DNA of 64,000 nt from Escherichia phage Bf23. The notes under the pieces are model-generated. The model was not told the origin of the DNA. It saw only the letters and a program-made list of their open reading frames with translations, and did no database searches. The stretch lies in sequence record OR083247.1, one strand, 5' to 3'. The position numbers and the translations under genes are program-made. Of this stretch, positions 681-31,591 are shown in pieces (positions within the stretch are counted from its first letter, which is position 1; each line of letters begins with the position of its first letter).

Positions 681-757
681 TGGCGCGACCGATGGGATTT
701 GAACCCACATTCTCTCCCGTGACAGGGGAGTACCATTACCAAGCCAGCCCCGGTCGC
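681..757 (-). tRNA. tRNA-Asp(GTC)
   Basis: Acceptor GCGACCG/CGGTCGC, anticodon stem CTCCC/GGGAG, loop CTGTCAC, T-arm GTGGG/TTCAAAT/CCCAT, discriminator G, CCA encoded (TGG at 681-683 on plus). Confidence 0.8.
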
Positions 758-766
758 ATAATTTAT

Positions 767-952
767 TTACTCAGCTTTGAGTTTTTCAATAGCTGCATTA
801 AGTTCTTTAAGAAACTCTTTTCGTACATTAAGACGATTGAGACTTACTAGTATATCATGTTTAAGTTCTTCGATGTATTTCTTCTCAACTTCAATATTGT
901 TGATAGTGCTATCACGATGAACCTCTAGCTGTGCAATTACGTTCTTAGACAT
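767..952 (-). CDS. hypothetical small coiled-coil protein (61 aa)
   Basis: ORF track; charged heptad-like sequence. Confidence 0.35.
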   Translation of the reverse strand: MSKNVIAQLEVHRDSTINNIEVEKKYIEELKHDILVSLNRLNVRKEFLKELNAAIEKLKAE

Positions 953-1054
953 ACTTATTTCCTCAGTTATTAATGAAAATGGTATCTGTGGCTGAATTCG
1001 ATGTCAGCAATGATAGCTGGTTGGCTACCGGTTTACTTAACTCTACACAGAATT

Positions 1055-1132
1055 TGGCGGTTCCTGCTGGATTCGAACCAGCAACCCTCAACTTAACAAG
1101 ATGCCGCTCTAACCAATTAGAGCTAAGGAACC
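1055..1132 (-). tRNA. tRNA-Asn(GTT)
   Basis: Acceptor GGTTCCT/AGGAACC, D-arm GCTC..GAGC, loop TTGTTAA, T-arm GCTGG/TTCGAAT/CCAGC, discriminator G, CCA encoded; anticodon stem has mismatches (3 of 5 pairs). Confidence 0.6.
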
Positions 1133-1627
1133 ATATAAGTCAGAACTAGAGTTAATACGTTCTAGATATTTACTAAGATCTCTAGAATTTATACTAAACC
1201 ACTCATGTTCTTTTAAATCTTTGAAATACTGGTGAATTAGTTTTTCACCTTTTCGTTTGTCAAACCAAAAAGACCAATGCTCTAACTTATAATCCCTATA
1301 AGGGGAATAAGTCTGATATTGAGCTAATCTCTCTTTTGGATTTTGACTCATGCCTATTTTATACTGATTTTTCCATGCAGGATTACTAATACAGTATACA
1401 AAACCTTCAGAAATAGGAAGTTTATTTTCCTGCTTAAACTTTATAAAGGAAAGTGCAGCAAGTTTTCTCGAATACATAGTATTTGTATTCTTTTTGGTAT
1501 TACCATTGGTTCCTGAAAGATTTATATATTCTTCCATAAATCTTTGGATTAGTTCTGCAGTTATATAGAAGGGCTCATTAGTAACAACGCCTTTCTTTAC
1601 CAAACTATCAAAAACTTTTGTATGCAC
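1109..1627 (-). CDS. GIY-YIG / T5orf172-like domain protein (172 aa)
   Basis: Motif GFVYCISNP..YKIGMSQNP..RLAQYQT matches the GIY-YIG-like T5orf172 pattern; 3' end overlaps tRNA-Asn by about 24 nt. Confidence 0.55.
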   Translation of the reverse strand: MHTKVFDSLVKKGVVTNEPFYITAELIQRFMEEYINLSGTNGNTKKNTNTMYSRKLAALSFIKFKQENKLPISEGFVYCISNPAWKNQYKIGMSQNPKERLAQYQTYSPYRDYKLEHWSFWFDKRKGEKLIHQYFKDLKEHEWFSINSRDLSKYLERINSSSDLYGSLALIG

Positions 1628-1648
1628 TACGCCTTTCCTTTAGTAATT

Positions 1649-1724
1649 TGGACGACCGCATGAGATTTGAACTCACATAAAAAGGATTTGCAATCCTTCG
1701 CCTAAGCCATTCAGCCAACGGTCG
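1649..1724 (-). tRNA. tRNA-Cys(GCA)
   Basis: Anticodon stem AAGGA/TCCTT, loop TTGCAAA, T-arm GTGAG/TTCAAAT/CTCAT, acceptor 7 bp with one G-U, discriminator U73 (Cys identity element), CCA encoded. Confidence 0.8.
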
Positions 1725-1902
1725 ATTTATCTTGTTTTTCGAGATCTTCAAATTCTAAATCATTGAAGTTCCCTAGAGTACGGGAGTAGAACCCGTCTCC
1801 TGCGTCATAGCCTGATTTGCCACAATCACACATTTTAAATTCACGAAGATGTGTAAAAACATGTTCAGAACCACAACACTTAAATCTAACTAATCGTTTC
1901 AT
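1711..1902 (-). CDS. small Cys-rich protein, possible zinc ribbon (63 aa)
   Basis: CC..H..C.C spacing in the translated ORF; stop overlaps the tRNA-Cys 5' end. Confidence 0.4.
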   Translation of the reverse strand: MKRLVRFKCCGSEHVFTHLREFKMCDCGKSGYDAGDGFYSRTLGNFNDLEFEDLEKQDKSTVG

Positions 1903-1931
1903 TAGCTTCTCCAGTTCAATTTATGTAATTA

Positions 1932-2240
1932 TTATATAGAACTTTTGGAAACTAAGCAACTACATTTTTTTAAGAATTTGATGCCTTTCTTTTTCTTCTT
2001 ATATTTCCACGTTAATGGATTTTGTCGATTATGAACGCTTGAGATCTTTGTCTCGTCAAAGTTCTTCAATATCATGTAATCACAGGATAATTGTTTTAGT
2101 GGAATGTGATCCCCGTCAAAAGCGTATACATAAGGCTGTTGACTAGCACGATAATGATAGACTTTGTTAATTCTACGTTTCAGCGACTTATCCGCACAGT
2201 AAATAAAGAAGTTTTCAGGATGCACTAGCATCTCCTTCAA
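1932..2240 (-). CDS. hypothetical protein (102 aa)
   Basis: ORF track; lysine-rich C-terminus. Confidence 0.4.
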   Translation of the reverse strand: MKEMLVHPENFFIYCADKSLKRRINKVYHYRASQQPYVYAFDGDHIPLKQLSCDYMILKNFDETKISSVHNRQNPLTWKYKKKKKGIKFLKKCSCLVSKSSI

Positions 2241-2242
2241 TT

Positions 2243-2317
2243 TGGTGCACCCTGTTCGAATTGAACGAACCTCTCAAGCTCTTCAGGCAAGCGCTAATCC
2301 ATCTCAGCTAAAGGTGC
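2243..2317 (-). tRNA. tRNA-Phe(GAA)
   Basis: Acceptor GCACCTT/AGGGTGC (one G-U), D-stem GCTG/TAGC, loop CTGAAGA, T-arm GTTCG/TTCAATT/CGAAC, discriminator A73, CCA encoded; anticodon stem carries two U-U mismatches. Confidence 0.55.
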
Positions 2318-2323
2318 AAATTT

Positions 2324-2394
2324 TGGCAGGGGTAAAGGTATTCGAAACCTTTTCATGGGTTTTGTAGGCCCATTTGCAACCTATGCGTACCCCA
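2324..2394 (-). tRNA. tRNA-like gene, anticodon unassigned (short, possibly degenerate)
   Basis: CCA encoded, T-arm AAGGT/TTCGAAT/ACCTT, 6-bp acceptor GGGGTA/TACCCC; middle region only 35 nt and no canonical 7-nt anticodon loop resolved. Confidence 0.35.
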
Positions 2395-2403
2395 ATTGTT
2401 AAT

Positions 2404-2480
2404 TGGCGTCCTGTGCGGGGATCGAACCCGCAAACCCTACCTTGAAAGGGTAGTGACTTTACCCGTTTGTCTAACAGGAC
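2404..2480 (-). tRNA. tRNA-Glu(TTC)
   Basis: Perfect acceptor GTCCTGT/ACAGGAC, anticodon stem CTACC/GGTAG, loop CTTTCAA, T-arm GCGGG/TTCGATC/CCCGC, discriminator G, CCA encoded. Confidence 0.8.
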
Positions 2481-2486
2481 TTAAAT

Positions 2487-2574
2487 TGGTAGGGGAGGAT
2501 GGAGTCGAACCACCCGAGTCGCAATGACAACTAATTTACAGTCAGCTCTGCTACCACTTACAGAATACTCCCCC
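2487..2574 (-). tRNA. tRNA-Tyr(GTA), type II with long variable arm
   Basis: Anticodon loop CTGTAAA with stem GCTGA/TTAGT (two G-U), variable arm about 15 nt, T-arm GGTGG/TTCGACT/CCATC, discriminator A73, CCA encoded; 88 nt. Confidence 0.65.
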
Positions 2575-2699
2575 ATATTTGAATGAAAAGTAAGTCGGTT
2601 AAACTCAAGGTGGAATATTTCAGGATTTCCTGACTTTACCCCTCAAAGCAGCTCGCTTAGTTACTTCTCATTCAGATATGTTTTCCAAATTAGATAACT

Positions 2700-2728
2700 A
2701 TTATACCAAGTTTTAGGGCACTGAGCAA
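2700..2728 (-). promoter_or_regulatory. sigma70-type promoter reading into the tRNA cluster (-35 TTGCTC, 17-nt spacer, -10 TATAAT)
   Basis: Hexamers read on the minus strand immediately upstream of tRNA-Tyr. Confidence 0.5.
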
Positions 2729-2756
2729 GTCAGATTTTGAAGAACTTGCTCAGTGC
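2718..2756. terminator. 12-bp perfect hairpin GCACTGAGCAAG/CTTGCTCAGTGC downstream of ORF 2765-3040
   Basis: Inverted repeat with 15-nt loop; overlaps the -35 of the tRNA promoter; no strong U-tract, so could be a processing or attenuation structure. Confidence 0.4.
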
Positions 2757-2764
2757 TGTATTAG

Positions 2765-3040
2765 TTAGTCGAACTTAGGAGTGACAGCTAAGGAAAACGG
2801 AAGTTCAAAAATTTCTTCGCCCTCATTACTAACGGTAACTACACGACCTTTAAGTTCAGACATTGAAATATCAATATCAGCTTTTGCATCTGGAGCCATG
2901 CCAGCTTCAATACACTTAGCTTTAACTTCCGGTAAAAGCTCTACATTATAGAGATAGAGCCACTCAATCTCACCTTCCCAGTCTTCCCAGGATTTACAGA
3001 TTGCACTTTCAATACCAGTTGCTACAACACGATTTTGCAT
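2765..3040 (-). CDS. hypothetical protein (91 aa)
   Basis: ORF track; same-strand context. Confidence 0.5.
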   Translation of the reverse strand: MQNRVVATGIESAICKSWEDWEGEIEWLYLYNVELLPEVKAKCIEAGMAPDAKADIDISMSELKGRVVTVSNEGEEIFELPFSLAVTPKFD

Positions 3041-3130
3041 TAGTTAACTCCTTCATCAATTTATATAACTATTATATCAGAAATTTAAAGCAAAAGGCAA
3101 GTACATTTTTAAAAATTCTATTCGGAGGAG

Positions 3131-3337
3131 CTAAACTCCAGATTCTTCGGCCAAGTCTAGGCTAATAAGAGTTATAGCCATAATTGCTGCACCGTGTTCT
3201 TTTTCTCCGGTGTTTTTAGCAGAGTCTATAATATCCTTAATCTGCTCGTAATAACTTTTTACTTCTTGTTCAATGCCCGCCTCGGCTATCATGCCTTTAG
3301 TCATGAGTCGTTGCATGGTAATTTCAGGATTAGCCAT
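3131..3337 (-). CDS. hypothetical protein (68 aa)
   Basis: ORF track. Confidence 0.4.
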   Translation of the reverse strand: MANPEITMQRLMTKGMIAEAGIEQEVKSYYEQIKDIIDSAKNTGEKEHGAAIMAITLISLDLAEESGV

Positions 3338-3526
3338 GTTGTTTCTCCAGTTTCATTTTTAATAGTTTACAAATGAAGTCAATATCTTCATCTGTGCCTA
3401 AGTCTCTATCCTCAAGGGTCGCCTTGAAGTTTTTCGTCAATTCCATGAGGATGACCTCTCTAGAACGACGTGTTGGTGGCGGAGGAGATCTATACATCTT
3501 AATTCCTTAATTTGGTAGGGGTTATA

Positions 3527-4210
3527 TCATCTATTTTTCTTAATACTTTTAGGATCTTTCCCTGTTAGGGACTTATACCTTTTCCTTAATCCAGTATCAG
3601 ACAATCCTAGTTCTTTGGAGGCACGAATCCAGGAATATTTAGATACCCAGTACTCTATTTGCTCCACAGTAATATCTGGATTTATAGTTATCTCTTTAGG
3701 AGTACATGATTTACAGTGTGTTGCTCTTGAGCTAATTTCGCAGTGACAAATAGCACACGTATTTACAGTCCTTTCTGTATACCTGCCAATATTTTTGCCT
3801 GCATGAGTAGGTGTTAGTGCATGGCAATTTGGGCATAGGAGGGCTAAGTTATCCCATTCATTATTATAGTGATTTCCATCCTTATGTTCAAGTTCTAAAG
3901 GAATTGGTTTATCTAACCAACTTTCTAAGCCACAACTCTCACATTTATGTGGTTTTAGCCCCTCGTTAAGAATTTTATTCTTTAGTTTATAGGAAGAAAT
4001 AGGGCTGCCGTTATATAAATACTCTGTTGCAGACTTATATTTATTATCATACTGCCTATTCGCAGGAATAACTACTATTCCTAGTTTTCCTAAATATGCT
4101 TCCAAAGTGTTCGAGGAGCAGGATAGCATTCTTGCTATCTCTGCTTTAGATTTTCCCTGAGCTATCCACTGAGCTATTTCTTCCTTTCTATCTAGTATAT
4201 CAGTTCTCAT
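3527..4210 (-). CDS. HNH homing endonuclease (227 aa) with N-terminal HTH
   Basis: HNH core ELEHKDGNHYNNEWDNLALLCPNCHA plus additional Cys clusters; free-standing gene beside the tRNA cluster. Confidence 0.75.
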   Translation of the reverse strand: MRTDILDRKEEIAQWIAQGKSKAEIARMLSCSSNTLEAYLGKLGIVVIPANRQYDNKYKSATEYLYNGSPISSYKLKNKILNEGLKPHKCESCGLESWLDKPIPLELEHKDGNHYNNEWDNLALLCPNCHALTPTHAGKNIGRYTERTVNTCAICHCEISSRATHCKSCTPKEITINPDITVEQIEYWVSKYSWIRASKELGLSDTGLRKRYKSLTGKDPKSIKKNR

Positions 4211-4233
4211 AGTTTATGACTTTATAATTAAGT

Positions 4234-4272
4234 TGGTGGCTCCCCGAGGATTCGAACCTACATCTTCCACCA
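4234..4272 (-). ncRNA. tRNA-like minihelix (T-arm-like hairpin with encoded CCA)
   Basis: TGG, then stem TGGTGG/CCACCA enclosing a GGATTCGAACC T-loop motif; no partner acceptor strand or anticodon arm found; lies in the ORF-free 4211-4568 region. Confidence 0.3.
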
Positions 4273-4531
4273 GTTACGGCTTGATAATACCAATTATACT
4301 AGGACGGCAGTGTTACTACATAAGTGATTTCCACACCCCACTATTTATAAATTAGAGAAGAGTTTAGGGGAGAGGTTTCAGACGCCCCATTTTATACGTT
4401 CTAGCCACTAACCGGGATTGCCGCCCCCTGTGTACTAGTTTTACAACTAACCCACCGACTCTATTCAGTGCACTCCGGTTGGGATTCTGCACTCAGCGTA
4501 ATCGGCTCGCTGTTCCCTAATTTATGAATAT

Positions 4532-27289: not shown

Positions 27290-27533
27290 ACTAACCGATT
27301 TACTTAAAGATGGGGAAGTAAAAACACTATATCGTAGAAGCTGGGATAACGATAATAACGGCTTAGTGTTATTAACTTTAGATGCTGACTCAGATGTAGC
27401 TACTCAGCATACCTGGGTAGCGGGTAACTATCCCTATAGCGAGATTGTTCCATTAACAGTATGCGAAGCTATTGCGGACGATTGGGAGGTTGCCAGCATT
27501 GATGATATGCTCGCTGTTGGCCTGGTGGAGTAA
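27258..27533 (+). CDS. hypothetical protein (about 91 aa; start uncertain, possibly GTG near 27285)
   Basis: ORF overlaps the 3' end of the previous gene. Confidence 0.4.
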   Translation: MIKKKENAVSRLTDLLKDGEVKTLYRRSWDNDNNGLVLLTLDADSDVATQHTWVAGNYPYSEIVPLTVCEAIADDWEVASIDDMLAVGLVE

Positions 27534-27636
27534 CTACTTAAAAATTTCAGTTGCTTAATCCTACAATTCTTGATATAATATTCTCATAGTTTGAAAGAAC
27601 TATTCTGTTTAATTCTTAATTAAGGAAATATAAAAT

Positions 27637-28431: not shown

Positions 28432-28740
28432 ATGAGCGAACAGGTAAATCAAAACTATGAAGGACACGTTGATGACCAGTCCATCATACTTTGGGAGAAG
28501 GAGGGGGAACAAGTAAGATTAACAGTATCTGAATTTCGTGGGAATCTATACATGGGTATTCGTTACTGGCTTCTTGATATTAATGATGAATGGTTTCCAA
28601 CGAAATCTGGCTTCTCTTTTCCTTACACCCTAGAAACAACATCACAGCTTTTCTATGCGTTTACACAGATTCTTAGCGAATCTGAGGTTTTACATGAAGT
28701 ACAGAAACGAGCTGAAGAACTCAAAGCCAAGAATGCCTAG
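28432..28740 (+). CDS. hypothetical protein (102 aa)
   Basis: ORF track. Confidence 0.5.
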   Translation: MSEQVNQNYEGHVDDQSIILWEKEGEQVRLTVSEFRGNLYMGIRYWLLDINDEWFPTKSGFSFPYTLETTSQLFYAFTQILSESEVLHEVQKRAEELKAKNA

Positions 28741-28767
28741 TTCTTGGCTTTTTCTTTATAAATGTAT

Positions 28768-28796
28768 TTGCTTTCAACTCAGTTTTGTTATATAAT
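28768..28796 (+). promoter_or_regulatory. T5-type early promoter (-35 TTGCTT, 17-nt spacer, -10 TATAAT) upstream of ligase subunit A
   Basis: Consensus hexamers plus downstream ATAAATTAATGAGAG box. Confidence 0.7.
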
Positions 28797-28827
28797 ATTT
28801 ATATAAATTAATGAGAGATATAAATAA

Positions 28828-29799
28828 ATGACCAATGTAAAAGAATTTATTAAACGCTGTCAAGAAGCATATTATCAAGGTATGTCTTTAATCTCTGATG
28901 AGGAGTATGATTGCCTAGTAAAACGCTTCCCGTTAGAGGAAGAGATCGGGCCTAAGGGTGATATTCCACATCTGTATCGTATGTATTCTTTACAGAAAGT
29001 TTACTATAACCGTGGAGATAAACCACCATTCAATCCTTTAGGTCAGGTGGAAACCGATAAGTTAGATGGTTGTGCAATTTCTCTGCTATATATTAATGGC
29101 GAATTTGTTCAAGCACTAACTCGTGGTAATGGTATTCTGGGGAATGATGTCACAAGCAACATAAGATTGCTGAACATCCCTAAAAAGATTTCCCAAAAAG
29201 TACCTACTCAAATCACTGGTGAAGTTCTAATTACAAAAGAAGTAGAAAATAAACGTAACTTTGCCTCTGGTGCTATTAACCTCAAAGATAGCGATGATTT
29301 CGTACAACGTATCGGGGAAGGTGGTTTAATCTTTGTTGCTTATGGTATCCAATGTTCTGCTGAATCTGTGGGTATTACAGAAGCATATTTAAAAGATATG
29401 CTTTGGCTAGAGAATGAGAACTTCTTAACAGTTGTTAATGTGCGTTCCTTCTTTAAATGGATTCCGACGGACGGTAAAGTTGTTCGTATTAATGACAACA
29501 ACAAATTCTTCCGTGAAGGCTGGACTAATAAATTCCCTCGTGGAGCATTCGCCATTAAAGAGGATGAAGAAGGCGAGATTACAACTCTTACTAAGGTTGA
29601 ATGGCAGGTAGGGGCTTCTGGTAAAGTAACTCCAGTTGGTTATTTCGAACCGGTAATTATTGATGATGCTACAATTGTTAAAGCGACTCTTAATAACGTT
29701 GATTATATTAACTCTCTCGATCTAGAGATCGGTTGCCAGATTCGAGTGATTCGTGCTGGTGGTGTAATCCCGTGCATAGTAGAGCGAGTATACGATTAA
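28828..29799 (+). CDS. NAD-dependent DNA ligase, N-terminal adenylation part (subunit A, 323 aa)
   Basis: KxDG adenylation motif in ETDKLDGCAISL; OB-fold-like C-terminal region. Confidence 0.8.
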   Translation: MTNVKEFIKRCQEAYYQGMSLISDEEYDCLVKRFPLEEEIGPKGDIPHLYRMYSLQKVYYNRGDKPPFNPLGQVETDKLDGCAISLLYINGEFVQALTRGNGILGNDVTSNIRLLNIPKKISQKVPTQITGEVLITKEVENKRNFASGAINLKDSDDFVQRIGEGGLIFVAYGIQCSAESVGITEAYLKDMLWLENENFLTVVNVRSFFKWIPTDGKVVRINDNNKFFREGWTNKFPRGAFAIKEDEEGEITTLTKVEWQVGASGKVTPVGYFEPVIIDDATIVKATLNNVDYINSLDLEIGCQIRVIRAGGVIPCIVERVYD

Positions 29800-29942
29800 T
29801 ACATAATCCTTTGCTACCCATCTACCATATCGGAATTATAAAGTGGTTATTGACATTTTCGCCGCTTAGGTATATACTATTATCATTCAGTTGAGGGATA
29901 GAAAGTTATGGCGAGGGTAAGCAAAGTTAGTTAAAATTGTAG

Positions 29943-29971
29943 TTGCTAAATGCTTAAATACTTGCTATAAT
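29943..29971 (+). promoter_or_regulatory. T5-type early promoter (-35 TTGCTA, 17-nt spacer, -10 TATAAT) between the two ligase parts
   Basis: Consensus hexamers plus downstream ATAAATTGATAAGGAAG. Confidence 0.7.
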
Positions 29972-29998
29972 ATTTATATAAATTGATAAGGAAGAAAT

Positions 29999-30781
29999 TT
30001 GATGAAAATCGAAATTCCAACACAATGTCCCTCTTGTGGTTCTAAGCTAGATCTTGTCAACGGACAATTATTTTGTCGTAATAAGTCCAACTGTCCAGCG
30101 CAATCAAGTAAGTTAATTGAGAACTTCTGTACAAAAATGAAGTTAAAGGGTTTTGGCCCGAAAACTATTGAGAAGCTGGAGCTGACGAAGATTTCAGAAC
30201 TATTTTACCTAACCGAAGAAGATTTGGTTAGAGCCGTGGGTAGCAAGGTTGCCGCTAAGTTAATTAGCGAATTAAATACTAAAGTTCGCGGAGACATTGA
30301 CTTTGGTTCAGTTCTCGGTTCTTTAGGAATCTCTCTAATTGGAGAGGTTGCAGCAAAGAAATTATCCCAAAATTGCACTAGCTTCCACGATGTGAAGGCT
30401 GACGGCAAGGCTGGAGAAAACTATAAAGCCTGGCTAAATTCCCCACAAGGCAAGGATGTTATCGAATTACCGTGGAAATTCACAACTGGTATTAAAGGTG
30501 CTAAAGCTGACATCATCATTACTGATGGTCTAGTAGCCCAACCAAACGGAATAACGGTATGTATTACCGGATCTTTGCAAGATTTTGCAAATAGAACGGA
30601 TGCAACAAACTATTTAGAAGGTCTAGGATATACGGTTAAGAAATCCGTTACCAAAGACGTCAAATACCTAATCTGTGAGGATGAATCGAAGCGTTCTTCC
30701 TCATCTTATAAGAAAGCCGAAACGAATGGGATAGAAATCCTGTCGATTAAAGAACTATTGGAGAAAAATAATAATGTCTAA
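29999..30781 (+). CDS. NAD-dependent DNA ligase, C-terminal part (subunit B: zinc finger, HhH, BRCT-like; 260 aa)
   Basis: Zn finger CPSCGS..C..C, helix-hairpin-helix-like GFGPKTIEKL. Confidence 0.75.
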   Translation: MMKIEIPTQCPSCGSKLDLVNGQLFCRNKSNCPAQSSKLIENFCTKMKLKGFGPKTIEKLELTKISELFYLTEEDLVRAVGSKVAAKLISELNTKVRGDIDFGSVLGSLGISLIGEVAAKKLSQNCTSFHDVKADGKAGENYKAWLNSPQGKDVIELPWKFTTGIKGAKADIIITDGLVAQPNGITVCITGSLQDFANRTDATNYLEGLGYTVKKSVTKDVKYLICEDESKRSSSSYKKAETNGIEILSIKELLEKNNNV

Positions 30782-31541
30782 ACTGAACTGGAACGTAGAA
30801 GGTGTAACCGAGTCTCTGAAAGCAAAAGCCACTGCTCTGGGTGTTGATGTAATCTCTCAAGAACAAGTAGCTGCTATCGCCGCTGAACTGGCTGCTGAAA
30901 CTGGCAAAGACGTTACCGCTCGCTCTGTTGGCTCTAAGCTGCGTAAAGAAGGTTTCGAAGTACAGAAAGCTAACGAAGTACAGAAATCCCCGTGGACTCC
31001 TGAGCAGGAAGCTGAACTGGTTGATTTCCTGAACGCTCACGCTGGTCAGTATACCTATGCTGAAATCGCTGCTGCTGTAGCTGGTGGTCAGTTCGGTGCT
31101 AAACAGGTACAGGGTAAGATCCTGAGTCTGGAAATGACCGCTTCTGTTAAACCAACTGAAAAAGCTGCTGCTGTTCGTTCCTTCACTCCGGATGAAGAAA
31201 CTGATTTTGTTAATCAGGTTGTTGCTGGTGCTACTATTGAAGCTATCGCTGCTCACTTCGGTCGTAATATCAAGCAGATCCGTGGTAAAGCTCTGAGCCT
31301 GCTTCGTGAAGGTCGTATCGCTGCTATGCCGGTACAGGAAACCTCAAGTGCTAAAACTCGTGAAGATCTGTTAGAAGGTCTGGATCTGGTTAACATGACT
31401 GTTGCTGAGATCGCTGAGAAAACTGGTAAATCTGAGCGCGGTGTTAAATCTATGCTGTCTCGTCGTGGTCTGGTTGCTAAGGACTATGATGGTGCCGCTA
31501 AGCGTGCTAAACTGGATGCAAAAGCTGCGGCTGCTGAATAA
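30774..31541 (+). CDS. abundant DNA-binding protein (T5 D5-like) with four internal HTH-like repeats (255 aa)
   Basis: Four repeats of an (I/V)AxIAxxxG(K/R)..(K/R)xxGKxLSL pattern; codon usage typical of highly expressed genes. Confidence 0.55.
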   Translation: MSKLNWNVEGVTESLKAKATALGVDVISQEQVAAIAAELAAETGKDVTARSVGSKLRKEGFEVQKANEVQKSPWTPEQEAELVDFLNAHAGQYTYAEIAAAVAGGQFGAKQVQGKILSLEMTASVKPTEKAAAVRSFTPDEETDFVNQVVAGATIEAIAAHFGRNIKQIRGKALSLLREGRIAAMPVQETSSAKTREDLLEGLDLVNMTVAEIAEKTGKSERGVKSMLSRRGLVAKDYDGAAKRAKLDAKAAAAE

Positions 31542-31558: not shown

Positions 31559-31591
31559 AAGGGGAGGGGGCTATGCTCCTTCCCCTTTTTG
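31559..31591 (+). terminator. rho-independent terminator
   Basis: Hairpin AAGGGGA..TCCCCTT followed by TTTTT. Confidence 0.6.

What the first reader, a model, noticed from the sequence alone, without database searches (positions are those of the whole stretch)
28828..30781. NAD-dependent DNA ligase split into two genes, each with its own promoter
The adenylation/OB part (KxDG motif) and the Zn-finger/HhH/BRCT part are separate ORFs 200 bp apart, and a full consensus promoter sits in the gap. The split could be the scar of an excised intron or homing endonuclease, or a deliberate two-subunit arrangement.
Basis: partly seen in the sequence, partly recalled or inferred. Interest (0 to 1): 0.4.

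Follow-up and report, generated by a model that had tools for sequence, protein, structure and literature searches.

The report
Phage T5's known two-subunit DNA ligase
This is the ligA/ligB gene pair of a T5-like phage, an NAD-dependent DNA ligase made as two separate proteins with strong early promoters between the genes; it is real, but it was described in 2005 and a relative's heterodimer structure was released in 2026, so it is ordinary.

Summary
ORF 28828-29799 (323 aa) carries domain Ia, the adenylation domain (K78-L-D-G) and the OB fold. ORF 30002-30781 (259 aa) carries the 4-Cys zinc finger, the HhH region and BRCT. Together they tile E. coli LigA (residues 1-393 and 400-671) and the full-length phage LigA profile phrog_3869 (positions 9-381 and 388-654) without overlap.

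The window is a T5-like phage, 98% identical to T5 here. [quoted passage not shown] The 202-nt gap is 99.5% identical to T5, and T5's record annotates promoters P-K28b and P-K28a there.

The split was published by Wang et al. in 2005. PDB entries 9HU3 and 9I5I (2026) show the orthologous pair from Providencia phage PR1 as a heterodimer on nicked DNA.

The split lies at the same domain boundary in every Demerecviridae genus examined. Both genes are under purifying selection. The gap has no coding or intron remnants, and no endonuclease was found in the relatives' gaps. The "excision scar" reading is therefore unsupported, and the "deliberate two-subunit enzyme" reading is supported.

The promoters are near-consensus (11/12 and 10/12), not fully consensus. 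Novelty: already known. Interest: low.

The parts
28723..28751 (+). Terminator-like hairpin at the end of the preceding PC4-like gene. It isolates ligA from upstream transcription.
   Evidence: 12-bp stem followed by a T run. (-17.3 kcal/mol, z -4.27). AY587007 annotates a putative terminator overlapping its 5' arm (window about 28726-28748).
28768..28796 (+). ligA early promoter core, TTGCTT-17-TATAAT. The T5 promoter feature maps to 28748-28822.
   Evidence: Sequence read. Annotated as a promoter in AY543070 and as T5P35 in AY587007. It shares a 25-nt -10/leader module with P-K28a.
28828..29799 (+). ligA, ligase subunit A (323 aa): domain Ia, nucleotidyltransferase (adenylation) domain and OB fold.
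   Evidence: Pfam. phrog_3359 E 7e-176. 99.4% aa identity to T5 LigA. PDB 9hu3_A E 2.6e-103. Catalytic residues K78, D80, G81, R99, E132, D215, K244 map to E. coli K115, D117, G118, R136, E173, D285, K314 and are invariant in 34 homologues. AlphaFold model with pLDDT 87.9 has 9i5i_A/9hu3_A as top fold hits.
29800..30001 (+). Non-coding gap of 202 nt holding two tandem promoters. It has no terminator and no coding or intron remnant.
   Evidence: Stops in all six frames, 30.7% GC, 99.5% identical to T5. No Rfam match. No stable hairpin (z 0.32 and 0.89).
29850..29878 (+). Promoter P-K28b core, TTGACA-17-TATACT. The T5 feature maps to 29830-29904.
   Evidence: 11/12. T5 annotation. Hexamers conserved in the T5, EPS7, Klebsiella, Providencia and Proteus phages. 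The same hexamers lie upstream of ligB in Vibrio phage pVp-1.
29943..29971 (+). Promoter P-K28a core, TTGCTA-17-TATAAT with an extended -10 TG. The T5 feature maps to 29923-29997.
   Evidence: 10/12, TG present. T5 annotation. Conserved in alignment A2. The 25-nt module at 29966-29990 is 92% identical to 28791-28815.
30002..30781 (+). ligB, ligase subunit B (259 aa): 4-Cys zinc finger, HhH region and BRCT.
   Evidence: Pfam BRCT. phrog_3498 E 3e-136. 97.7% aa identity to T5 LigB. PDB 9hu3_B E 1.3e-78 and E. coli LigA residues 402-529 and 587-666. 950 of 955 phage records with a match cover at least 80% of it.
30774..31541 (+). D5 DNA-binding protein gene. Its ATG overlaps the ligB stop (ATGTCTAA). 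It is co-transcribed with ligB from P-K28b/a.
   Evidence: ligB-D5 adjacency is conserved in all relatives examined.
31559..31587 (+). Intrinsic terminator that closes the ligB-D5 transcription unit.
   Evidence: 13-bp stem, 8 GC pairs, T run. (-22.9 kcal/mol, z -3.07).

Best explanation
These are the ligA and ligB genes of a Tequintavirus (T5-like phage). Together they encode one NAD+-dependent DNA ligase as a non-covalent heterodimer.

Subunit A (Ia + NTase + OB) reacts with NAD+ to form the Lys78-AMP intermediate and carries the nick-sealing chemistry. Subunit B (Zn finger + HhH + BRCT) supplies the DNA-binding half of the clamp, which in bacterial LigA is the C-terminal half of the same chain. 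The break falls in the short OB-to-Zn-finger linker, and only about six residues of the E. coli linker have no counterpart.

Both are early genes. ligA is transcribed from its own promoter, which follows a terminator. No terminator follows ligA, so its transcripts probably continue into ligB. The tandem promoters P-K28b and P-K28a in the gap add further transcription of ligB and D5, which ends at the terminator after D5.

Shown here: domain content, tiling, identity with T5, conservation and purifying selection, and conservation of the promoter sequences.
Shown by others: heterodimer formation on nicked DNA for the PR1 orthologues (PDB titles), and self-adenylation by a LigA-type fragment lacking the C-terminal domains (LigN-deltaC).
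Inferred: that the T5-type A subunit needs B for nick joining, the read-through from ligA, and the excess of ligB over ligA mRNA.
For: Identity with T5:
- 98.2% nt identity over 2401 nt, covering the features ligA, ligB, D5 and three promoters.
- The gap is 99.5% identical to T5.

Domains and tiling:
- Pfam.
- PHROG tiling of positions 9-381 and 388-654 out of 656.
- E. coli LigA mapping to residues 1-393 and 400-671.
- Catalytic residues are conserved and invariant in 34 homologues. Of the Ia residues, Y27 and D28 are invariant; D24 and Y16 are conserved relative to E. coli but are not invariant columns.

Heterodimer:
- PDB 9HU3 and 9I5I hold both chains (E 2.6e-103 and 1.3e-78).
- They come from Providencia phage vB_PreS_PR1 (100% tblastn match).
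- They are titled [quoted passage not shown].

Literature:
[quoted passage not shown] 2005. In the same paper LigN-deltaC (Ia + adenylation + OB) self-adenylates (PMC1684257).
- The genes are called subunits A and B in PMC3632103 and PMC4319617.

Conservation:
- The same split is present in Tequintavirus, Epseptimavirus, Sugarlandvirus, Priunavirus, Novosibvirus, Vipunavirus, Thalassavirus and an unclassified Vibrio phage.
- The top 120 homologues of A carry only the aden + OB domains. All are 310-337 aa apart from one 240-aa partial, and they lie on contigs of up to about 128 kb.
- dN/dS is 0.024-0.058 for ligA and 0.157 for ligB in the unsaturated comparison with T5.

Transcription:
- Promoter hexamers are conserved across five genera while the rest of the gap diverges.
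- pVp-1 has TTGACA-17-TATACT before ligB.
- There is no hairpin after ligA, but strong hairpins lie before the ligA promoter and after D5.
Against: - No biochemical data on the T5 proteins themselves were found in the searchable library. Heterodimer formation is transferred from orthologues only 55-56% identical.
- Motif IV Lys290 of E. coli is Arg220 here, though this Arg is invariant in the clade. Ia residue His23 is Gln17.
- The HhH region is shorter than in E. coli LigA and falls below Pfam's cut-off.
- Transcription start sites and relative transcript levels were not measured here.
Confidence: 0.93

Rival explanations
1. Historical scar. An ancestral single-chain phage LigA was cut in two when a mobile element (an intron, a homing-endonuclease gene or a small gene cassette) inserted into the OB/Zn-finger linker. 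The insert was later lost in the T5 lineage, leaving only promoters. This concerns origin and does not conflict with present heterodimer function.
For: - The gap is a variable insertion site within the family. Proteus phage PL1 has one 55-aa ORF there, Vibrio phage 70E35.6 has one, pVp-1 has two and Thalassa has three.
- T5 is reported to carry 9 homing endonucleases (PMC4319617).
- Fused phage LigAs exist: phrog_3869 and Yersinia phage GN1, 637 aa.
Against: - The gap holds no endonuclease or intron remnant: stops in all frames, and no tblastx similarity to relatives' gap genes beyond the promoter region. There is no Rfam hit.
- None of the gap ORFs in relatives matches an endonuclease family. 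They are proteins of unknown function plus a DprA-like protein, phrog_768.
- The break point and the promoters before ligB are the same in every lineage. The split therefore predates the family's radiation, and no fused close relative exists.
Confidence: 0.12
2. Broken gene. This is a decaying LigA pseudogene interrupted by a promoter insertion or a sequencing frameshift, and the phage relies on host LigA.
For: - The phage infects hosts that have their own LigA.
- One old record (EPS7, NC_010583) has ligB broken into ORFs of 108 and 129 aa.
Against: - Both ORFs are intact, with their own start codons (and, from the sequence, purine-rich ribosome-binding sites upstream). 950 of 955 matching phage records cover at least 80% of ligB, and 1054 of 1195 cover at least 80% of ligA.
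- dN/dS is 0.02-0.16.
- Catalytic residues are invariant.
- The gap is 199-202 nt with stops in all frames, so this is not a frameshift.
- The orthologous pair is deposited as a heterodimeric DNA ligase bound to nicked DNA.
Confidence: 0.01
3. Partly independent proteins. Beyond forming the ligase, LigB is made in excess with D5 from two strong promoters and has a ligase-independent role, such as a BRCT/HhH scaffold at the replisome or binding to the phage's site-specific nicks. The split would exist to allow that separate dosage or role.
For: - ligB has two extra conserved promoters and is always adjacent to D5. In this window its stop overlaps the D5 start.
- There is no terminator after ligA.
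- The PR1 structure was solved on DNA "containing phage nick sequence", so others have considered a link to the T5-type genome nicks.
Against: - There is no direct evidence for any second function.
- The promoters may simply serve D5, which is required for DNA replication and late transcription (note in the T5 record).
- The 8-nt ligB/D5 overlap is not conserved in the Klebsiella, Proteus or Vibrio relatives.
Confidence: 0.1

Closest known systems
Bacteriophage T5 ligA/ligB (T5.116/T5.117, AAS77162/AAS77163; dnlj1/dnlj2 in AY587007). The "split NAD+-dependent DNA ligase" of Wang et al. 2005, Virology 332:45.
   Same: Orthologous and nearly identical:
- 98.2% nt identity over the whole locus, 99.4% aa for LigA and 97.7% aa for LigB, and a 99.5% identical gap.
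- The same flanking genes (PC4-like gene upstream, D5 and D6 downstream) and the same three promoters.
   Different: Only point substitutions. The window as a whole is a mosaic Tequintavirus rather than T5 itself.
Providencia phage vB_PreS_PR1 heterodimeric DNA ligase, PDB 9HU3 and 9I5I (released January and February 2026)
   Same: - The same two-chain architecture, with chain A of 339 aa and chain B of 248 aa.
- E-values of 2.6e-103 and 1.3e-78 to the window's proteins.
- The same gene order, ligA-gap-ligB-D5, with a promoter in the gap.
- Top fold match for the model of subunit A.
   Different: - About 56% (A) and 55% (B) aa identity.
- The PR1 record annotates a terminator directly after ligA, whereas the window has no hairpin there.
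- No paper describing the structures was found in the library.
Bacterial single-chain LigA (E. coli LigA, PDB 2OWO)
   Same: - The same domain order: Ia-NTase-OB-Zn-HhH-BRCT.
- Motif I KxDG and the other catalytic residues.
- Four of the five essential Ia residues. That these five are essential is from my own knowledge of the LigA literature; the mapping is.
- Four zinc-finger cysteines.
   Different: - Two polypeptides instead of one.
- 582 aa in total against 671.
- Shortened Ia-NTase linker, NTase insertions and HhH region.
- K290 is replaced by R220 and H23 by Q17.
T5 early promoters P-K28a and P-K28b. From my own knowledge, these are among the T5 promoters characterised by Gentz and Bujard in 1985.
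   Same: The gap is 99.5% identical to T5's, and T5's annotated promoter features map onto 29830-29904 and 29923-29997. The hexamers and 17-nt spacers were found by the scan.
   Different: None detected. The primary promoter papers were not retrievable in the library.

Membership tests
NAD+-dependent DNA ligase (LigA) family | Nucleotidyltransferase domain with motif I KxDG and the other catalytic motifs | tested here: met
   PF01653 E 2.7e-23. K78-L-D-G, R99, E132, D215 and K244 align to E. coli K115, R136, E173, D285 and K314 and are invariant in 34 homologues. Motif IV K290 is Arg220.
NAD+-dependent DNA ligase (LigA) family | N-terminal domain Ia with NMN-binding residues, the feature that sets NAD+ ligases apart from ATP ligases | tested here: met
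   Y16, D24, Y27 and D28 align to E. coli Y22, D32, Y35 and D36; H23 is Q17. Y27 and D28 are invariant in the clade. The model shows two N-terminal helices.
NAD+-dependent DNA ligase (LigA) family | LigA-type OB-fold domain | tested here: met
   PF03120 E 3.8e-22, 78.4 bits against a cut-off of 32.9.
NAD+-dependent DNA ligase (LigA) family | Four-cysteine zinc finger, HhH DNA-binding domain and C-terminal BRCT | tested here: met
   C9, C12, C25 and C31. ORF2 residues 3-122 align to E. coli LigA 402-529, whole-sequence E 1.7e-10. BRCT PF00533 scores 35.1 bits against a cut-off of 21.3. Pfam HHH_2 alone is below its cut-off (20.7 against 27).
NAD+-dependent DNA ligase (LigA) family | All domains on one polypeptide | tested here: not met
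   There are two ORFs separated by 202 nt with stops in every frame. This is the defining difference of the T5-type variant.
NAD+-dependent DNA ligase (LigA) family | NAD+-dependent nick-sealing activity | not testable with these tools
   Inferred from the motifs and from the PR1 orthologue bound to nicked DNA.
T5-type two-subunit ligase (LigA/LigB of Demerecviridae) | A subunit matches the stand-alone A family end to end | tested here: met
   phrog_3359 E 7.2e-176, positions 1-325 of 325. 99.4% identical to T5 LigA.
T5-type two-subunit ligase (LigA/LigB of Demerecviridae) | B subunit matches the stand-alone B family end to end | tested here: met
   phrog_3498 E 3.1e-136, positions 1-255 of 256. 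97.7% identical to T5 LigB.
T5-type two-subunit ligase (LigA/LigB of Demerecviridae) | Conserved synteny: ligA, gap with promoter(s), ligB, D5, on the same strand | tested here: met
T5-type two-subunit ligase (LigA/LigB of Demerecviridae) | The two proteins form a heterodimer on nicked DNA | not testable with these tools
   Shown for the PR1 orthologues by the PDB entries 9HU3 and 9I5I. Not tested for this phage.
Gene split by an intron or homing endonuclease | An endonuclease ORF, its remnant or an intron RNA lies between the halves | tested here: not met
   No ORF, and stops in all six frames. No Rfam match at E up to 1. The gap ORFs of relatives have no endonuclease family hits.
Gene split by an intron or homing endonuclease | Patchy presence, with close relatives carrying an uninterrupted gene | tested here: not met
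   Every Demerecviridae lineage examined is split at the same place. None of the top 120 homologues is fused.
Sigma-70 early promoters P-K28a/b of T5 | -35 and -10 hexamers with 17-nt spacing at the positions annotated in T5 | tested here: met
Sigma-70 early promoters P-K28a/b of T5 | Transcription initiates there in infected cells | not testable with these tools
   Rests on the T5 annotation and on my own knowledge of the 1980s promoter studies. The papers were not retrievable.

The most novel reading that the evidence does not exclude
The split is adaptive rather than a frozen accident. Uncoupling the DNA-binding half (LigB, co-expressed with D5 from two conserved strong promoters) from the catalytic half (LigA, from one weaker promoter) would let the phage set ligase activity through subunit stoichiometry. 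It could also give LigB a second role at the replisome or at the site-specific single-strand nicks that T5-type genomes keep unsealed in the virion.
Probability: 0.1. Interest if true: 0.4.

Novelty: already known. Interest (0 to 1): 0.1.

Why it matters
It matters little as a discovery. The split T5 ligase has been in GenBank and in the literature since 2004-2005, the gap promoters are annotated T5 promoters (P-K28a and P-K28b), and a heterodimer-DNA structure of an orthologue was released in 2026.

The useful outcome is a clean negative: the gene pair is a conserved two-subunit enzyme and not a recent excision scar. One question remains open. Why has this phage family kept the split for its whole radiation, with extra promoters always in front of ligB-D5? 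That question is modest and is apparently already being pursued by the depositors of 9HU3.

Tried and rejected
- I made six literature searches for a paper on the PR1 or T5 heterodimeric ligase: "9HU3", "heterodimeric DNA ligase", "vB_PreS_PR1", "PR1 phage", "T5 ligase" and similar terms. None found a primary paper. Only genome papers and the 2006 LigN paper mention the split.
- The search for P-K28a/b returned only unrelated hits, mostly K28A point mutants.
- Rfam at E up to 1 on 28500-31000 found nothing.
- blastn and tblastx of the gap against relatives' gaps found only promoter-region similarity and no coding remnant.
- Pfam on the small ORFs in or beside the relatives' gaps found nothing significant. 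PHROGs gave unknown-function families and a DprA-like family.
- dS was saturated for the Klebsiella, Providencia and Proteus comparisons, so those dN/dS values are unusable.
- I did not model the A+B complex.
Full report
**What is there**

The window carries two same-strand ORFs at exactly the stated coordinates.
- ORF1 is 28828-29799 (323 aa).
- ORF2 is 30002-30781 (259 aa from the ATG). An in-frame TTG at 29999 gives the 260-aa reading.
- The intergenic gap is 202 nt to the ATG and 199 nt to the TTG.

Pfam places the NAD-dependent ligase adenylation domain (E 2.7e-23) and the LigA OB fold (E 3.8e-22) in ORF1. It places BRCT (above its cut-off) and a weak HhH in ORF2.

**Tiling test**

- ORF1's last residue corresponds to E. 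coli LigA residue 393, and ORF2 residue 3 aligns to residue 402. About six linker residues (394-399) have no counterpart.
- Against the full-length phage LigA profile phrog_3869 (656 positions), ORF1 covers 9-381 and ORF2 covers 388-654. Each ORF also matches its own stand-alone family end to end: phrog_3359 at E 7e-176 and phrog_3498 at E 3e-136.
- The catalytic residues are in place: K78 (KxDG), D80, G81, R99, E132, D215 and K244.
- Four of the five NMN-binding Ia residues are kept (Y16, D24, Y27, D28; H23 is Q17).
- ORF2 has the four zinc-finger cysteines C9, C12, C25 and C31.
- The catalytic residues, Arg220 and Ia residues Y27 and D28 are invariant in 34 diverse homologues.
- An AlphaFold model of ORF1 (pLDDT 87.9) has LigA structures as its best fold matches.

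**Identity of the locus**

The stretch 28600-31000 is 98.2% identical to phage T5 and 98.3% identical to T5_ev219 over its full length. The T5 records annotate the following:
- ORF2 as "ligB, subunit B";
- the next gene as D5;
- three promoters: one before ligA, and P-K28b and P-K28a in the gap.

Mapped onto the window, the promoters lie at 28748-28822, 29830-29904 and 29923-29997. The gap itself is 99.5% identical to T5.

The rest of the window is a mosaic Tequintavirus. The left 25 kb is about 95% identical to T5, and the right 25 kb is about 92% identical to Salmonella T5-like phages.

**Prior knowledge**

[quoted passage not shown] 2005. They show that a LigA-type fragment with only Ia, the adenylation domain and the OB fold still self-adenylates.
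- Later papers routinely call the genes subunits A and B.
- The PDB holds 9HU3 and 9I5I, each with a chain A (339 aa, E 2.6e-103 to ORF1) and a chain B (248 aa, E 1.3e-78 to ORF2).
- Chain A is 100% identical to Providencia phage vB_PreS_PR1, a T5-like phage.
- The entries are titled [quoted passage not shown] (one with the phage nick sequence, one with a random sequence). They were released in January and February 2026.
- I found no paper for them in the library.

**Is it a scar or a stable design?**

The gap has stop codons in all six frames and 30.7% GC. It shows no similarity to anything but promoter regions in relatives, has no Rfam match and has no stable RNA hairpin.

The same split at the same domain boundary occurs in Tequintavirus, Epseptimavirus, Sugarlandvirus (Klebsiella), Priunavirus (Providencia), Novosibvirus (Proteus), Vipunavirus and Thalassavirus (Vibrio), and an unclassified Vibrio phage.

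In the Proteus and Vibrio phages the gap holds one to three small genes. None is an endonuclease. They are unknown-function PHROGs and a DprA-like protein.

The 120 best database homologues of ORF1 (46-98% identity) carry only the two Pfam domains. All are 310-337 aa apart from one 240-aa partial sequence, and many lie on contigs of 100-128 kb. The next phage tier is fused, for example Yersinia phage GN1 at 29% identity.

Both genes are under purifying selection. For ligA, dN/dS is 0.024 against T5, 0.043 against EPS7 and 0.058 against Klebsiella. For ligB it is 0.157 against T5. 950 of 955 phage records with a ligB match cover at least 80% of it.

The split is therefore ancient and maintained, not a recent excision scar or a pseudogene. 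An insertion as the original cause cannot be excluded, but it has left no trace.

**Promoters and transcription**

The scan finds TTGACA-17-TATACT (29850-29878, 11/12) and TTGCTA-17-TATAAT with an extended -10 TG (29943-29971, 10/12). Both are near-consensus, and neither is "full consensus".

The overall count of promoter-like sites in the region is not above the shuffled expectation. The evidence is conservation instead:
- In an alignment of the T5, EPS7, Klebsiella, Providencia and Proteus phages, both pairs of hexamers are conserved while the surrounding gap diverges.
- Vibrio phage pVp-1 has TTGACA-17-TATACT just before its ligB, downstream of its inserted genes.

The ligA promoter (TTGCTT-17-TATAAT, 28768-28796) shares a 25-nt -10/leader module with P-K28a (28791-28815 and 29966-29990, 23 of 25 identical). 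Both genes therefore have the same spacing from the promoter to the start codon.

A strong terminator-like hairpin precedes the ligA promoter (28723-28751), and another follows D5 (31559-31587). None follows ligA. The ligB stop overlaps the D5 start (ATGTCTAA, 30774-30781).

My inference is that ligA transcripts read through, and that P-K28b/a add transcription of a ligB-D5 unit. The promoters in the gap may exist as much for D5 as for ligB. That remains an inference.

**Mechanism**

Subunit A performs step 1 (Lys78 adenylation by NAD+, with Ia binding the NMN moiety) and carries the NTase/OB chemistry. Subunit B provides the Zn-HhH-BRCT DNA-binding half that closes the clamp round the nick in single-chain LigA (PDB 2OWO). 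The two associate non-covalently, as deposited for PR1.

- Shown here: architecture, tiling and conservation.
- Shown by others: the heterodimer on nicked DNA (PR1), and self-adenylation without the C-terminal domains (LigN-deltaC).
- Inferred: that the T5-type A subunit depends on B for sealing.

**Verdict**

The feature is already known, so interest is low.

Noticed in passing
window 28791-28815, 29966-29990 and 3052-3076 (minus strand): A 25-nt module, TATAATATTTATATAAATTRATRAG (-10 hexamer plus initial transcribed leader), is shared by the ligA promoter and P-K28a. A third copy with 2 mismatches lies on the minus strand near the tRNA cluster. Shuffles give 0 matches. AY587007 calls it "repeat b".
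   Followed up: partly
window 30774-30781: The ligB stop codon overlaps the D5 start codon (ATGTCTAA), which suggests translational coupling of ligB and D5. The overlap is present in T5 and EPS7, but the Klebsiella, Proteus, Providencia and Vibrio relatives examined have the two genes apart.
   Followed up: partly
window about 27532-27606: By co-linearity with AY543070, T5 promoter P-N26 lies upstream of the D3 gene. The sequence TTGCTT-17-TATAAT is present at 27551-27579.
   Followed up: no
L012 (Escherichia phage EPS7, NC_010583) 3672-4453: In the EPS7 record ligB is broken into ORFs of 108 and 129 aa, and only the second is annotated. This is either a sequencing frameshift in a 2008 record or a real ligB loss in that isolate.
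   Followed up: partly
L010 (Serratia phage 2050HW, MF285618) 2106-4090: A jumbo-phage LigA is annotated in three pieces (65 aa, 59 aa and 535 aa), with the N-terminal Ia region split off. This may be a different kind of fragmentation or sequencing errors.
   Followed up: no
L002 (phage SP15) 728-1000; also IrisVonRoten, HdH2 and MET_P1_179_112: Some close relatives carry an extra 273-bp gene (90 aa, phrog_35018, unknown function) inserted immediately upstream of ligA. It is absent from the window and from T5. The Klebsiella phage has a 91-aa ORF at the same place.
   Followed up: partly
L004, L005, L006 and L007 (Proteus and Vibrio Demerecviridae), ligA-ligB gaps: The ligA-ligB gap is an insertion hotspot in distant family members. 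It holds one to three small genes of unknown function, including a DprA-like protein of 175-186 aa (phrog_768) in pVp-1 and Thalassa.
   Followed up: partly
protein P0012: A 240-aa fragment 100% identical to the window's LigA is labelled "hypothetical protein, partial [Enterococcus faecalis]" on a 723-bp contig. This is probably T5-like phage contamination of that assembly. One search also listed a few Listeria and Campylobacter phage records with short matches to the region.
   Followed up: no
window 681-2574 (minus strand): A cluster of six tRNA genes (Asp, Asn, Cys, Phe, Glu, Tyr), as expected for the T5 tRNA region.
   Followed up: no
whole window: The window is a mosaic. The ligase locus is about 98% identical to T5, the left 25 kb about 95% identical to T5 (88-92% covered), and the right 25 kb is best matched at about 92% by Salmonella T5-like phages. 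The source is therefore a Tequintavirus not identical to any record in the collection.
   Followed up: partly
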